A stretch of 64,000 nucleotides of DNA, taken from NCBI GenBank assembly GCA_964016885.1, contig OZ024743.1, positions 17,608,001-17,672,000 on the forward strand, given 5' to 3'. Source of the stretch: Eledone cirrhosa. Lineage: Eukaryota. Numbering within the stretch: the stretch's first letter is position 1; every line of letters starts with the position of its first letter. Of this stretch, positions 9,041-33,109 are shown one piece after another. The position numbers and the translations under genes were made by a program. A model generated the notes under the pieces. It was not told the origin of the DNA. It worked only from the letters and a program-made list of their open reading frames with translations, and did no database searches.

Positions 9041-10881
9041 TTTCTGTTTACTTTTCTTCTCTGTGTTTCTGCCTCTTCTGTCCTGTACCTCACGCATTTT
9101 TTTTCATCCTTATATGCCTTCGAATATTTGCCCATACTTGAATTACATTCACGCCTCCATCATGACTGGTCTCAGTCTCCTCTTTCCGCAGCCCCATTTC
9201 ACACTAAAAGTTGCTCTCTCCTAACATTTCCAGCCTGTGCCTTTTAGTTGATATACGCAAATTTGCATCCCCAGGAAATGTTCTTCACGAAGCATTAGAT
9301 AGTTCTGTATTTCTAAGTCACTACCGATTGCATGAATATTATGATGAAAGATTTAAACATCTCGAAAAATCATGATCAGTCCGTCCTTCTTTTACTGACA
9401 AGCCTGTGACATGTTCAGAAAGAAAAATAGGGGAAAATATTTTTCTTAGGAACATGTATTTTGATAGAAAGGCTACCCATATATCTACTGCATATAACCA
9501 TATGCAATACCTTTTTATATTATGCTTAAATGCTGTTTTAGAACTATTATATATGTGTACTTATATGTAACTGCATAATATTTAATTGAATTGAACAGTT
9601 AGTACTGATTATGCCTTAATCGCCTGTCGCTTTTTCCAGTTTAATCTATATTTATTTTAATAAGCACGGTTTAGTATGTGTGGGTAAGGACATACATAAA
9701 TTTGTTGATTCATATATCAGAAGAATTTCAAAGGTTTTACCCAAACACATCTCTTAAATTTTAATTGTTAATTACGTGATTCATAAATGAGAATGCGCTT
9801 AAAATAAATTGAAGTGAAAACAATCCGTGCAATGAGCAATATCGTTATTTATTAAGGGGCAATGTTTCGACATATGAGATTCTAACGTAAAATATAAATT
9901 GCTAAAATCAAAGAGATAATGTTTTATTAATATGATTATAAACTTTACTTTAAAAGAAATATGGTCTCTGATCGACATATGTTGTGATATTCAATCTTTC
10001 TCAAAACATTTATTATGATTATAGATTTGTTATTAGTTCCCGTAATTTTAATCTAATTTTTAGTTATAATCTCAATGGATATATGCCTTTCAAAAAGGAA
10101 AAGGCGATTCCGAACCTATATTTTGTTTTACATTAATGTGTATGTGTATCTCTGAGTATATATGTATGTGTGTGTGTGTGTGTATGTGTGTGTGGGTGTG
10201 TATGTGTTTGTATTAGTGATATTTTGAGATCTAGGGCGTATGAATGTGTATTATTTAAAATATCTTTGAATATATGACAAATTACTGATCAATAGAGACT
10301 GAACGTAAAAATAGTGGCATTAAATCGCATTTAAAAGTAAGTACTTTTATCATTGTGTTTGTTATTGTTGTCTATTTTTGATACATTTCGGTCTTTTTTG
10401 TTCTATCATCTACTAATGCTTATATTATTTGAGTGTAAACTAGACATTTGTAATCAATGAATGTCTTTTGCCAAACCATATTTCTATTGATAAATAGCGA
10501 TTTAATCTTTTAGGTGAACGTAACACATACGAGCAAGCAGAAAAATGTACTTTATGAAAATGTTGCCAGAGATAACATTTATCATGTTGTTTTGTCATGT
10601 TATCCATACTTCTTTAATCCAGTCATTATTTCTGAGATAATAATCACATAATTCATACTTCGCGATAGAAATGTTTACTGAATGTGTGAGAAGCCAAACA
10701 CAAACGAACTTTCGAAGGAAATCATATGTAAATACGTAAGGAAAGACGATGGCAGGTACACAAAATATGTATATATATATATATATATATATATATATAT
10801 ATATATATACATTATGAAGAGAGAAGAAACATTTAGATATAATTAGTAATAAAATGTATCATACCTAAACTGCCCCTAAAT

Positions 10882-10969
10882 TCCTCGACTACGTAGTTTC
10901 GTGGCATAAACAAAAACAATATATCAAAGATATAGAGTCCTTGCGAGGTCTGCCGACTTATCAAGAGGA
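10882..10969 (-). ncRNA. Type I hammerhead ribozyme, U3:A8 variant, branched loop II
   Basis: Minus strand: TCCTC-TTGATAA-GTcGGCA...TGCCAC-GAAA-CTACGTAG-TC-GAGGA; GUC cleavage site. Confidence 0.85.
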
Positions 10970-11472
10970 TACCTCATTTTACTAGTCTCAAGAACGCGTC
11001 TACACGACGTGAGAAAGAATCCCAAAAGGCGGAGGGGGAGATAGTCACGCGATATAACGGTCGAGAAACAGAGCTAAGCCTCTTATAACCACGAAGAAAA
11101 TACCACGGAGGCGGAGGGGGTATTCATATCGAGGCCGTAGAAGAGGTAGTGAAGAAGGCGAGAAGTATGAGTAATGGAAGCTTTCCAGTTGTCCCCACAC
11201 TTCAAAGATTGCTCGACCAGAGGGAGTTATTAATATATTTAGAAACACACAGATACATGCGGACACACACATATATACATGAATGCATCCGCACCCAACT
11301 GTGAGTTAAGGGTGCCAACTTCACCGATGTTGCTCAATGAATGACTGGGACAGACCAATTCAGTTTGAACCAGACTGAACCAGTATCAGAGTTAAAAATA
11401 CATTATGAAGAGAGAAGAAACATTTAGATATAATTAGTAATAAAATGTATCATACCTAAACTGCCCCTAAAT

Positions 11473-11560
11473 TCCTCGACTACGTAGTTTCGTGGCATAA
11501 ACAAAAACAATATATCAAAGATATAGAGTCCTTGCGAGGTCTGCCGACTTATCAAGAGGA
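11473..11560 (-). ncRNA. Type I hammerhead ribozyme, second copy in family A locus 1
   Basis: Same sequence as 10882-10969, 591 nt away. Confidence 0.85.
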
Positions 11561-11712
11561 TACCTCATTTTACTAGTCTCAAGAACGCGTCTACACGACG
11601 TGAGAAAGAATCCCAAAAGGCGGAGGGGGAGATAGTCACGCGATATAACGGTCGAGAAACAGAGCTAAGCCTCTTATAACCACGAAGAAAATACCACGGA
11701 GGCGGAGGGGGT

Positions 11713-11934
11713 ATATATATATTTATGTATATATATATTTATGCATGCATGCATATATATGTATAGATTAATGCATGCATATATATATATATATATATAT
11801 ATATATATATATATATATATATATATATAAATAAATAAATATATATATATATATATATATATATATATATATATATATATATATATATATATATATATAT
11901 ATATATATATATATATATATATATATATATATAT
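11713..11934. repeat. (TA)n microsatellite
   Basis: Direct reading. Confidence 0.97.
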
Positions 11935-12048
11935 GTTAATAAGAGGAATTCTAACTTTATCTGATTTACTCGTTTTATTTACAATCCTTTAAAATATATA
12001 TAATGGTATTATAATGAAATAGTATGATAGAATATTAAATTCTAAGTG

Positions 12049-30060: not shown

Positions 30061-30525
30061 AGGCACATGTGGCGATGTTTATTCATCCCTTTGTTATATA
30101 TTCTTGTGGCAGATACGTATTTTGAAAAGTTAATTAAATCGCTTATGGTATATGCATTATTTTGCAATTCATTATCTCACTCCCCCCATTCCTATTAAAT
30201 ATGTCCCCCCGTAGAAGATCCAGAAAAATGGTATTAAATATGCTTAAACCCATGCATTTGTAACTACATACTTTATACATAATTTGAAACATCTAAACAT
30301 GATAACCATGCACATATAACATGCATTCATATGGTTTTCTATAGAGTGGTAATGGAGGTGAAGAATGGTGGAGACCTTGTGGAAACTCTGCGTTATATAT
30401 ATATATATATATATATATATATATGTAGATAAATCTATTTTCAGTACAATATATATATATATATATATATATATATATATATATATATATATATATATAT
30501 ATATATATATATATATATATATATA

Positions 30526-31274
30526 TTCTCTAATAATGTATTAAATATATACTCTTGGTGGCCGGATATGATTTCCAGATATCAGGTATGACTCTCTTTA
30601 TTATTATTATTTTTTATATGAAATACTGATTGATCTTCCTTGTATCCCATGTCTGATTTAGCCTTAGATAATAACTATGTGTGTATATGGGTGGTCCATA
30701 CATGTATTTATTATATTTTAATAACTCTATGTGTGCATTGATTGTGTATACATATAGTTATTCTTTTAATATCCAATTGAGTTCTTAAACACGTGGTTAT
30801 AATACGTAACAGGTTTAAATGACCAGCGTGTATATTATTTTATATTTTATGACCTCCCCTTACCCTTTTGGGGGCAGTGTGTATTTTATCTTTGAGAGGA
30901 CTGCTGAATTTTCGATCTACCAGTCTCTTTTTAGCGCTGAAGGAGACCATCACTAATCTATTAATGTCGATGTATTTTTTATATCGATATTATATGGGCA
31001 TCCACTGATGAGTTTATAAGAGCCAACTTGTGTATAAAACTAAGGATTATATACAAGTTTCTACATAACCTGGACATTATTTATGCCAAATTGTAGAAAA
31101 CCTATAACGAAACGATCGTCTGGAAGGAAAAAGATATGTATTTAATTATGTCTCATATAAAATAATACAAACACTAAATTGGGAAATACATAGGTGGTAT
31201 ATTCTAATGTTTGTTGAGTGAGATGGAGTTGGTCAGAGTATCGCTTAAGGCTTTCTCTGTTAATGTATTCAATA
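30526..31274 (+). mobile_element. ~727-bp HHR-bearing unit with ~22-bp terminal redundancy, inside (TA)n (family E)
   Basis: Starts TTCTCTAATAATGTATTAAATA and ends TTCTCTGTTAATGTATTCAATA; long (TA)n on both sides. Confidence 0.7.
31001..31124 (+). ncRNA. Type I hammerhead ribozyme, canonical core, two hairpins inserted in loop II
   Basis: TCCA-CTGATGA-GTTtATA...TATAAC-GAAA-CGATCG-TC-TGGA. Internal hairpins AACTTGTGTATAA/TTATATACAAGTT and TCTACA/TGTAGA. Predicted cut after C31120. Confidence 0.88.
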
Positions 31275-31444
31275 AATATATATAAATATATATATATATA
31301 TATATATATATATATATATATATATATATATATATATATATATATATATATATATATATATATATATATATATATTATGAAGAGAGAAGAAACATTTAGA
31401 TATAATTAGTAATACAATGTATCATACCTAAACTGCTCCTAGAT

Positions 31445-31534
31445 TCCTCGACTACGTAGTTTCGTGGCATAAACAAAAACAATACATCATAAAGATATAG
31501 AGTCCTTGCGAGGTCTGCCGACTTATCAAGAGGA
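31445..31534 (-). ncRNA. Type I hammerhead ribozyme (family A)
   Basis: Core and stems identical to 10882-10969; differences confined to loop II. Confidence 0.85.
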
Positions 31535-32037
31535 TACCTCATTTTACTAGCCTCAAGAACGCGTCTACACGACGTGAGAAAGAATCCCAAAAGGCGGAGG
31601 GTGAGATAGTCACGCGATATAACGGTCGAGAAACAGACCTAAGCCTCTTATAACCCCGAAGAAAATACCACGGAGGCGGAGGGGGTATTCATATCGAAGC
31701 CGTAGAAGAGGTGGTGAAGGGGGCGAGAATTATGAGTAATGGCTGCTTTCCAGCAGTCACCACACTTCAAAGATTGCTCGACCAGAGGGAGTTATTAACA
31801 ATATATTTAGAAACACACAGATACATGCGGACACACAGATATACATGAATGCATCCACACCCAACCGTGAGTTAAGGGTGCCAACCTCACCGATGTTGCT
31901 CAATGAATGACTGGGACAGACCAATCCGGTTGAACTAGACTGAACCAGTATCAGAGTTAAACATACATTATGAAGAGAGAAGAAACATTTAGATATAATT
32001 AGTAATAAAATGTATCATACCTAAACTGCTCCTAGAT

Positions 32038-32127
32038 TCCTCGACTACGTAGTTTCGTGGCATAAACAAAAACAATACATCATAAAGATATAGAGTCCTT
32101 GCGAGGTCTGCCGACTTATCAAGAGGA
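32038..32127 (-). ncRNA. Type I hammerhead ribozyme (family A)
   Basis: Tandem copy 593 nt from 31445. Confidence 0.85.
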
Positions 32128-33109
32128 TACCTCATTTTACTAGCCTCAAGAACGCGTCTACACGACGTGAGAAAGAATCCCAAAAGCGGAGGGGGAGAAA
32201 GTCACGCGATATAATGGTCGAGAAACAGAGCTAAGCCTCTTATAACCCCGAAGAAAATACCACGGAGGCGGAGGGGGTATTCATATCGAAGCCGTAGAAG
32301 AGGTGGTGGAGGAGACGAGAATATATAAATATATATATATATATATATATATATATATATATATATATATATATATATATATATATATATATATATATAT
32401 ATATATATATAAATATATATCAAAGGTATATATTGAGTTAAGAACTCAAAATAGTCTCTTACAACAAAATAGCTCTAAGAAAGAGATATTTCCGAGCCGT
32501 ATATTATAATAGAATATACATATATTCATTTTTTTTCTTTTTTATTCTATTATAAAAATTAGAATTGGATCTCTAATATTCCATTATAATTATATATATA
32601 TATATATATATATATATATATATATATATATATATATATATATATGTGTGTGGGGGGGGGGTGACCTTATGTGTGTGTGTATATATACATGAAATGATAT
32701 TTTGCAATTATAATATATTTGTACTTGTTTTAACAGTAACTCTAGTATAATGCTTCGAAATTGGGATATTTTGGGTGATTTAGACTGCTAGAATATATTA
32801 CGTTTCAGTCAGAGATAATATTTTTGGGGAAACAAATTATGAAGCTTTGAAACCAGATTTAAGAAGTGTTTCTAACATAAAATATTAATACTGTTTAAGT
32901 TTATCTATAAATAAATATAATGCCGTGTGTCAACGCATTATACTACAATTTGCAAACAGCGTTATTTATGGAATAAAATACGCATTTCATACAATTATCC
33001 ATTGTGAAGAGTAAACACTAAGAAAATACAAATACAATGCAAGGCATTTGTAAAAATGACTTTTTCGTATGTAAATTAATTCACATTTCATAAATAGTCT
33101 TTATAATTA

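What the first reader, a model, noticed from the sequence alone, without database searches (positions are those of the whole stretch)
10809..32320. Family A: two HHRs exactly one unit apart predict a ~591-nt self-excising, possibly circular RNA
Seen: two independent loci (10809-11712 and 31374-32320) each hold 1.5-1.6 near-identical units with an HHR in both (spacing 591 and 593 nt). Core and stems are unchanged between loci while loop II varies. Inference: a minus-strand transcript cut at both GUC sites releases a unit-length monomer that could be ligated into a circle and serve as the RT template.
Basis: partly seen in the sequence, partly recalled or inferred. Interest (0 to 1): 0.75.

Follow-up and report, generated by a model that had tools for sequence, protein, structure and literature searches.

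The report
Two-ended hammerhead retrozyme with Penelope footprint
These two loci are copies of a young, non-coding repeat with thousands of copies and a predicted self-cutting RNA motif; the kind is known, but its mirror-image insertions almost always pair two different fixed ends, which likely records how a Penelope-type jumping-gene enzyme copies one RNA, possibly a circle, into both sides of a DNA break.

Summary
Observation confirmed. Both loci hold 1.5-1.6 units with two minus-strand type I hammerhead motifs, 591 and 593 nt apart. The core is the published U3-A8 variant, and 'loop II' is really an extended helix. The family has 7,458 exact core copies in G000, arrays of up to 7 identical full units, no ORF, and (TA)n targets. 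Core and stems are more conserved than the rest (1 of 44 vs 121 of 507 columns). Insertions end not at the cut site but at two fixed sites, +80 and +245 nt from it. Inverted two-armed insertions carry one of each: 43 of 44, plus 24 of 24 independent pairs. An intact Penelope-like element here does the same (9 of 9). This is a non-LTR retrozyme with the Penelope 'tail' footprint, the tail being 165 nt rather than 30-40. A circular template is plausible but unshown. An uncut multimeric transcript fits nearly as well, and public runs gave no evidence of a circle. The mobilising partner was not identified. The scan already reported this family and the one-of-each rule on other DNA of this genome (e1-8673517, e1-8673856).

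The parts
10807..11720 (-). Family A insertion 1: single arm, 5'-truncated at unit position 349, one full unit, 3' end at the fixed +80 site; flanked by (TA)n
   Evidence: L004
31370..32322 (-). Family A insertion 2: single arm, 5'-truncated at unit position 314, one full unit (593 nt), 3' end at the fixed +80 site; flanked by (TA)n
   Evidence: window2
10882..10969 (-). Type I hammerhead motif, U3-A8 core, 5-bp helix I, extended helix II, short palindromic helix III; predicted cut after C17 at 10887
11473..11560 (-). Second hammerhead motif of insertion 1; predicted cut after C17 at 11478
31445..31534 (-). Hammerhead motif of insertion 2; predicted cut after C17 at 31450
32038..32127 (-). Second hammerhead motif of insertion 2; predicted cut after C17 at 32043
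10887..11477 (-). Predicted cut-to-cut monomer, 591 nt, non-coding (longest stop-free frame 86 codons); unit position 1 = 11477
31450..32042 (-). Predicted cut-to-cut monomer of insertion 2, 593 nt
11398..11417 (-). Internal copy of the +80 terminus motif (site at 11398), 3' of a predicted hairpin at unit positions 1-71; inferred reverse-transcription start site 1
   Evidence: DNA-like run X4 has loose ends into TA at 11398
11233..11252 (-). Internal copy of the +245 terminus motif (site at 11233), 3' of a predicted hairpin at unit positions 170-241; inferred start site 2
   Evidence: X4 loose ends into TA at 11233
11028..11119 (-). Two identical 10-nt GC-box-like motifs (unit positions 359 and 441) in the CpG-richest part of the unit, upstream of the hammerhead; candidate internal promoter (label recalled, untested)
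10765..10809 (.). (TA)n target tract at the 3' end of insertion 1 (other tracts: 11712-11934, 31272-31375, 32321-32420)

Best explanation
Family A is a young non-coding tandem repeat with a hammerhead motif and Penelope-type insertion ends, likely a non-autonomous Penelope-like element (non-LTR retrozyme) whose RNA would be cut to a 591-nt monomer, likely circularised, and copied in trans by a Penelope-like RT/GIY-YIG protein. Steps: (1) the minus strand is transcribed across two units (inferred). (2) The hammerheads cut after GUC, probably as a dimer through the palindromic helix III (inferred from fold, conservation and literature). (3) A host ligase closes the monomer (inferred by analogy; weakest step). 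(4) The Penelope protein cuts both strands of a (TA)n tract (inferred) and primes at two internal AU-rich sites, +80 and +245, each just 3' of a long hairpin (the two fixed ends are shown; reading them as RT start sites follows PMC11167929). (5) One DNA end uses +80 and the other +245 (the one-of-each pattern is shown). Each cDNA runs 0.1 to 8 units through the cut site, and the two 5'-truncated arms are joined head to head. If only one arm survives, a single arm results, as at both window loci.
For: Copy number and youth: 7,458 exact cores; units 100% identical across several contigs. Ends: of 92 insertions examined, 49 are two-armed, 42 single-armed and 1 unclassified by the script. Of 44 two-armed insertions with both canonical ends, 43 are one-of-each (p=5e-12). 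One of the 43 is a local duplicate (L085), and the exception L076 has a 72-83% diverged left arm. Single arms end at +80 (25), +245 (16) or elsewhere (1). Independent tally from junction patterns on contig C1: 39 of 39 adjacent divergent pairs are one-of-each, 24 of 24 beyond the fetched stretch. Genome-wide there are at least 2,574 +80/TA junctions and 1,771 +245/TA junctions. An intact RT+GIY-YIG Penelope-like element of this genome has two ends 63 nt apart, one of each in 9 of 9 complete two-armed insertions (one end mislabelled by the script and read from the printed sequence). Its first end resembles the +80 motif (12 of the last 15 letters, by eye). Hammerhead conserved and foldable within 1.1 kcal/mol of the local minimum. 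Full units differ by a mean of 1.0 within insertions vs 17.4 between them; 6 of 13 multi-unit insertions have 2-5 private columns shared by all their units (L098 has 1), 4 of them across both inverted arms. No 5'-end pile-up at the cut site. In the predicted circle the hammerhead is sequestered, as a stable circle would need.
Against: No RNA, cleavage or circle observed. Unit position 13 is mixed A/G within 8 of 40 informative insertions, 6 of them within one arm. That fits independently edited units of a multimeric template, or an RT error hot spot, better than one circle. In vitro, the anole Penelope protein used uncut RNA as its main substrate and hammerhead mutants did not affect insertion (PMC11167929). 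Only 1 of 9 frog retrozyme dimers cleaved in vitro (10.64898/2026.07.22.740005), and Penelope hammerheads cleave poorly (PMC4209133). No autonomous partner with sequence similarity was found: none in 32 loci of the intact element or 30 Hydra-type loci beyond microsatellite patches. Private variants may reflect unsampled source copies (about 90 of several thousand insertions seen). The sample was selected by searches needing the hammerhead or the whole unit, so read-through frequencies are inflated.
Confidence: 0.6

Rival explanations
1. Same Penelope-driven, two-site priming, but the template is the uncut multimeric transcript of a tandem source copy; the hammerhead is a processing or 5'-trimming accessory and no circle is needed.
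For: PMC11167929: uncut RNA was the main substrate in vitro and no reads ended at the cut site. Mixed A/G at position 13 within arms. No ends at the cut site. Long source arrays exist (L011, L122). The intact 4.2-kb element shows the same tandem and inverted pattern.
Against: Arrays copied from arrays can only shorten, so 7 identical full units in one arm need a regenerating step (inference). The hammerhead is strongly conserved in the active lineage. Unit-length circles are shown for coral, mussel and axolotl retrozymes (PMC7229834).
Confidence: 0.29
2. The template is the linear cut monomer, and multi-unit arms arise by repeated RT template jumping from 5' end to 3' end.
For: Would also give read-through and occasional unit-to-unit differences.
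Against: Predicts 5' truncations piled at the cut site and scars at unit junctions. Seen: 3 of 142 ends within 2 nt; the ten helix I columns flanking or pairing across the junction carry 1 rare variant in 869 cells.
Confidence: 0.07
3. An ordinary satellite grown by unequal crossover, with a fossil hammerhead.
For: Tandem arrays; 10.64898/2026.07.22.740005 mentions local amplification for retrozyme arrays.
Against: Thousands of dispersed insertions with two fixed 3' ends, variable 5' ends, inverted arms and (TA)n targets; selective conservation of the hammerhead.
Confidence: 0.04

Closest known systems
Metazoan non-LTR retrozymes (Cervera and de la Pena 2020, PMC7229834: passages and Discussion read; Li, Clavereau, Pollet 2026, 10.64898/2026.07.22.740005: parts 1-3 of 5 read, supplements closed)
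   Same: Non-coding tandem units, one type I hammerhead per unit, low GC, no LTR features, Penelope-like elements proposed as mobiliser; 591 nt lies within the 51-972 bp consensus range of Li et al.
   Different: Larger than the 170-400 nt RNAs shown in 2020; U3-A8 core and long helix II instead of a canonical hammerhead; (TA)n targeting, two fixed internal 3' ends and inverted two-armed insertions are not described in the parts read; circle not shown here.
EN+ Penelope-like elements and their 'tail' (Craig et al. 2021, PMC8557442: passages and section 11; Frangieh et al. 2024, PMC11167929: parts 1-2 of 4)
   Same: [quoted passage not shown]
   Different: No ORF; tail 165 nt instead of 30-40; strict one-of-each pairing within an insertion (Frangieh saw no start-site difference between strands in bulk); both ends have TA-like microhomology to the target, whereas the anole start site was not homologous to the cut DNA.
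U3-A8 hammerheads of Schistosoma Cercyon elements and palindromic-helix-III Penelope hammerheads (Cervera and de la Pena 2014, PMC4209133: passages)
   Same: U3-A8 covariation, short helix I, long helix II with a bulge, small palindromic helix III suggesting dimer cleavage; that paper also proposes circular templates.
   Different: Helix II region is 57 nt here versus 7-8 bp; arranged in ~590-nt non-coding tandems rather than mostly as single motifs.

Membership tests
Metazoan non-LTR retrozyme | Tandem units, each with a type I hammerhead | tested here: met
Metazoan non-LTR retrozyme | No protein coding | tested here: met
   longest stop-free frame 86 codons; no match to the intact element's proteins (best E 0.17)
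Metazoan non-LTR retrozyme | No LTR structure; dispersed multi-copy family | tested here: met
   92 insertions are arms of head-to-tail units with no separate internal region; PBS/PPT not searched as such
Metazoan non-LTR retrozyme | Hammerhead conserved above background | tested here: met
   1 of 44 vs 121 of 507 columns, p=2e-4; non-CpG 0 of 36 vs 106 of 467
Metazoan non-LTR retrozyme | Self-cleavage of the transcript | not testable with these tools
   fold only
Metazoan non-LTR retrozyme | Expressed as unit-length linear and circular RNA | tested here: inconclusive
   only assembled contigs were available, which cannot show ends, strand or level
EN+ Penelope-like element insertion signature | Partial tandem with 5' truncation and inverted second arm | tested here: met
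   49 two-armed and 42 single-armed of 92
EN+ Penelope-like element insertion signature | Two alternative 3' ends (tail) | tested here: met
   +80 and +245; tail 165 nt, longer than the 30-40 bp in print
EN+ Penelope-like element insertion signature | (TA)n target bias | tested here: met
   flanks printed; junction counts
Autonomous Penelope-like element | RT and GIY-YIG ORF | tested here: not met
Non-autonomous derivative of a specific Penelope family | Sequence similarity to the pLTR of an autonomous partner | tested here: inconclusive
   none to the intact two-ORF element or to one Hydra-type family; no short-helix relative (8 hits, all family A-like by their printed letters); only 2 Penelope families sampled in a genome with many

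The most novel reading that the evidence does not exclude
One Penelope protein dimer grips a single 591-nt RNA circle at two hairpin-flanked sites 165 nt apart, assigns one site to each strand of a (TA)n double-strand cut, and runs two reverse transcriptases round the circle at once; the one-of-each ends and identical multi-unit arms are the genomic fossil of double rolling-circle target-primed reverse transcription.
Probability: 0.4. Interest if true: 0.75.

Novelty: new variant of a known kind. Interest (0 to 1): 0.5.

Why it matters
How Penelope-like elements make their tandem/inverted insertions with a one-sided tail, and whether retrozyme circles really are transposition templates, are stated open questions (PMC8557442, PMC11167929, PMC7229834). 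This family gives a short, young, non-coding substrate. Its two start sites are far apart, so easy to resolve and mutate, and the strict one-of-each rule constrains any mechanism: the two DNA ends are not primed independently. A young intact candidate enzyme exists in the same genome, so the circle-versus-multimer question becomes a direct bench test. The class, the U3-A8 core and the existence of a tail are already in print.

Tried and rejected
Rfam: no hammerhead hit in the window.

Expression: no RNA holder listed among 6 runs from 3 studies. I laid 4 of the 6 (X1-X4). X1 and X3 each hold a single contig of 621 or 620 nt, i.e. unit + 30, as a closed loop in a 31-mer graph would give. I rejected this as a hint of a circle. 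On a control gene locus these runs lack the host mRNA but carry other host repeats at about the same tiny ratio to run X4 as family A does (about 4e-5; ratios worked out by hand), i.e. trace host DNA, where tandem arrays give the same loop. X2 has a contig spliced over a 3,655-nt GT..AG intron, so it behaves as RNA. It covers the unit at summed depth about 100-300, but this is about 0.001 of X4's depth, against about 0.12 for other repeats. Contigs cannot show level, strand or ends, so I draw no conclusion on expression either way.

Partner search: intact two-ORF element, one Hydra-type family and a short-helix hammerhead pattern gave no sequence link.

RNA-editing scars (lead from e1-8803865): no A>G excess among singletons (16 of 133 vs T>C 23 of 212) and a mild one among shared variants (24 of 133 vs 17 of 212, p=0.01, polarity uncertain). 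Within-insertion A/G vs C/T is 36 vs 30 (p=0.046), driven by one site. Not accepted as proof.

Apparent 5' ends at unit position 1 were mostly an artefact of splitting alignments at the query end; recomputed. The pattern missed the commonest +245 variant, added. Covariation support for the hairpins is almost all one-sided (27 one-sided keeps, 1 two-sided, 12 breaks), so it is suggestive only. Other repeat families in the window (4780-6260, 19860-21140, 21480-22740, 23180-24860, 24800-25720, 36420-37170) gave no convincing hammerhead with the stricter scan.
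Full report
Observation. The window lies in G000, an unnamed 3.0-Gb animal genome; earlier scan notes call it a cephalopod, which I did not test. Self-comparison confirms two partial tandems, 10807-11720 and 31370-32322, whose units are 94% identical, each between (TA)n tracts. A type I hammerhead scan found four minus-strand motifs with C17 at 10887, 11478, 31450 and 32043, giving spacings of 591 and 593 nt. Rfam misses them. Below, unit position 1 is the first base after the predicted cut (window 11477).

The ribozyme motif. Helix I is 5 bp and the core is U3-A8. Helix III is short with a 10-nt palindrome (self-duplex -14.3 kcal/mol). The hammerhead fold costs 1.1 kcal/mol over the local minimum. 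U3-A8 and palindromic helix III are published for Penelope hammerheads, which are thought to act as dimers and cleave weakly in vitro (PMC4209133, passages). Across about 90 places, 1 of 44 core/stem columns carries a variant shared by three or more insertions, against 121 of 507 other columns (p=2e-4; non-CpG 0 of 36 vs 106 of 467). The circularised minus-strand monomer folds at -171.7 kcal/mol (z -5.9, 40 shuffles), the plus strand at z -1.8. In the predicted circle the 3' arm of helix I is paired elsewhere, so the ribozyme would be off. Shared variants in predicted helices mostly keep pairing through G.U. By hand count, 14 of 15 single transitions at Watson-Crick pairs keep it; over all shared alternatives there are 28 keeps and 12 breaks, with only one two-sided change.

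The family. There are 7,458 exact copies of a 23-nt core pattern, control 0. The unit has no ORF. I examined 92 insertions from the best hits (39 of 40 places plus the second window locus) and from the first 100 core matches on contig C1. Arms reach 4,746 nt with 7 identical full units. Among 69 full units from 43 insertions, pairs differ by a mean of 1.0 within an insertion and 17.4 between insertions. Four two-armed insertions share private columns across both inverted arms.

The ends. Insertions do not end at the cut site. They end at unit position +80 or +245 and run into (TA)n; at least 2,574 and 1,771 such junctions exist. Of 49 two-armed (head-to-head) insertions, 44 have two canonical ends and 43 of these carry one of each (p=5e-12). 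One of the 43 is a local duplicate, the single like-ended case has a much older left arm, and 5 have one truncated or unclassified end. Junction coordinates on C1 up to 104.7 Mb give 39 of 39 one-of-each pairs, 24 of them outside the fetched set. Single arms end at +80 (25), +245 (16) or elsewhere (1); both window loci are +80 single arms. Each end lies 4-9 nt 3' of a long predicted hairpin, in an AU-rich patch resembling the target. The 5' ends are scattered: 3 of 142 lie within 2 nt of the cut site, 1.2 expected. 116 of 135 canonical arms cross the cut site, a figure inflated by how they were found. I noted this rule before consulting earlier scan notes, which report it for the same family.

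The likely machinery. A remnant beside locus 1 led to a young intact element with a 775-codon RT+GIY-YIG ORF. It has a minimal hammerhead, (TA)n targets and two ends 63 nt apart, used one of each in 9 of 9 complete two-armed insertions; a tenth has a truncated arm. Its first end resembles the +80 motif by eye, as does the end of a third hammerhead family at 30940-31270. There is no alignable similarity to family A. One abundant, older Hydra-type family also has two ends but no likeness to family A, so the Hydra lead of e1-8805697 was not borne out in that one family. The partner is unidentified.

Mechanism. Frangieh et al. (PMC11167929, parts 1-2 of 4) showed that a Penelope protein cuts and extends both strands of AT-rich DNA and starts at two internal RNA sites that define the genomic tail. 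Craig et al. (PMC8557442, passages) describe inverted arms and a 30-40 bp tail often at one end only. Family A carries this footprint, so mobilisation by a Penelope-like protein is well supported (about 0.9). Whether the template is a circle is open. For the circle: read-through with clean junctions, uniform long arrays, hammerhead conservation, a predicted blocked fold in the circle, and circles shown for other retrozymes (PMC7229834). Against: position 13 is mixed A/G within 8 of 40 informative insertions, and uncut RNA was the working substrate in vitro. I put the circle model at 0.6 and the uncut multimer at about 0.3. Public runs were contigs only and are not counted either way.

Comparison and novelty. 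It works like, and by every sequence-level test is, a metazoan non-LTR retrozyme; cleavage and circular RNA remain untested. Its size is within the range of Li et al. 2026. Five paper searches found no paper stating a strict one-of-each rule, a tail of this length, or two-armed retrozyme insertions. The library lacks most subscription journals, and figures and supplements were not seen. Verdict: real, a new variant of a known kind, of moderate interest (0.5) because it makes an open mechanistic question directly testable.

Noticed in passing
window 11935-13237 (-): Internally deleted remnant of a young Penelope-like element, ending in the same (TA)n tract as insertion 1. Intact relatives (4.2-kb unit, e.g. 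L134) have a 476-496 codon ORF1 overlapping a 775-codon RT+GIY-YIG ORF2 in another frame, a minimal hammerhead, and two 3' ends 63 nt apart used one of each in 9 of 9 complete two-armed insertions. The Neptune-like label rests on the Cys linker and is partly recalled.
   Followed up: partly
window 30940-31270 (+): A different family with an oversized-helix-II hammerhead (C3-G8 core, predicted cut at 31120), ending in the same (TA)n tract as insertion 2. Its fixed 3' end resembles the +80 motif of family A, with no other similarity. 22 of 24 loci fetched run directly into a TA-rich tract at this end.
   Followed up: partly
window 20348-20812 and 38546-39100 (-): GIY-YIG-like fragments with the CxCX5C linker of Hydra-clade Penelope-like elements (PMC8557442 section 11); no significant Pfam family matched them. 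The first has 48,787 first-look candidates in G000 and two 3' ends in (TA)n.
   Followed up: partly
window 11465 and 10874 (unit position 13): Recurrent A/G mosaic within single insertions (8 of 40 informative); G is the minor letter in all 4 cases with a majority. Could be site-selective A-to-I editing or an RT error hot spot.
   Followed up: partly
unit positions 321-420 (window about 11058-11157): 5' truncations cluster here (50 of 142 arms, about twice the uniform expectation), around a GC-box-like motif and TA-like microhomologies; sampling bias not excluded.
   Followed up: no
L103, L076 left arm: Older 72-83% relatives keep the hammerhead core and helix III while the helix II extension and downstream sequence have diverged.
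   Followed up: partly
window 23229-24815, 36470-37123, 19921-21088, 4825-6227, 21522-22705: Other tandem and inverted-arm repeats with Penelope-like geometry; a hammerhead-like hit at 36960 (+) was not recovered by the scan.
   Followed up: no
window 58954-62381 (-), 49280-50545, 56921-58167, 54898-56622: Non-LTR retrotransposon ORF remnants (RVT_1 at 60003-62381, E 3e-24).
   Followed up: no
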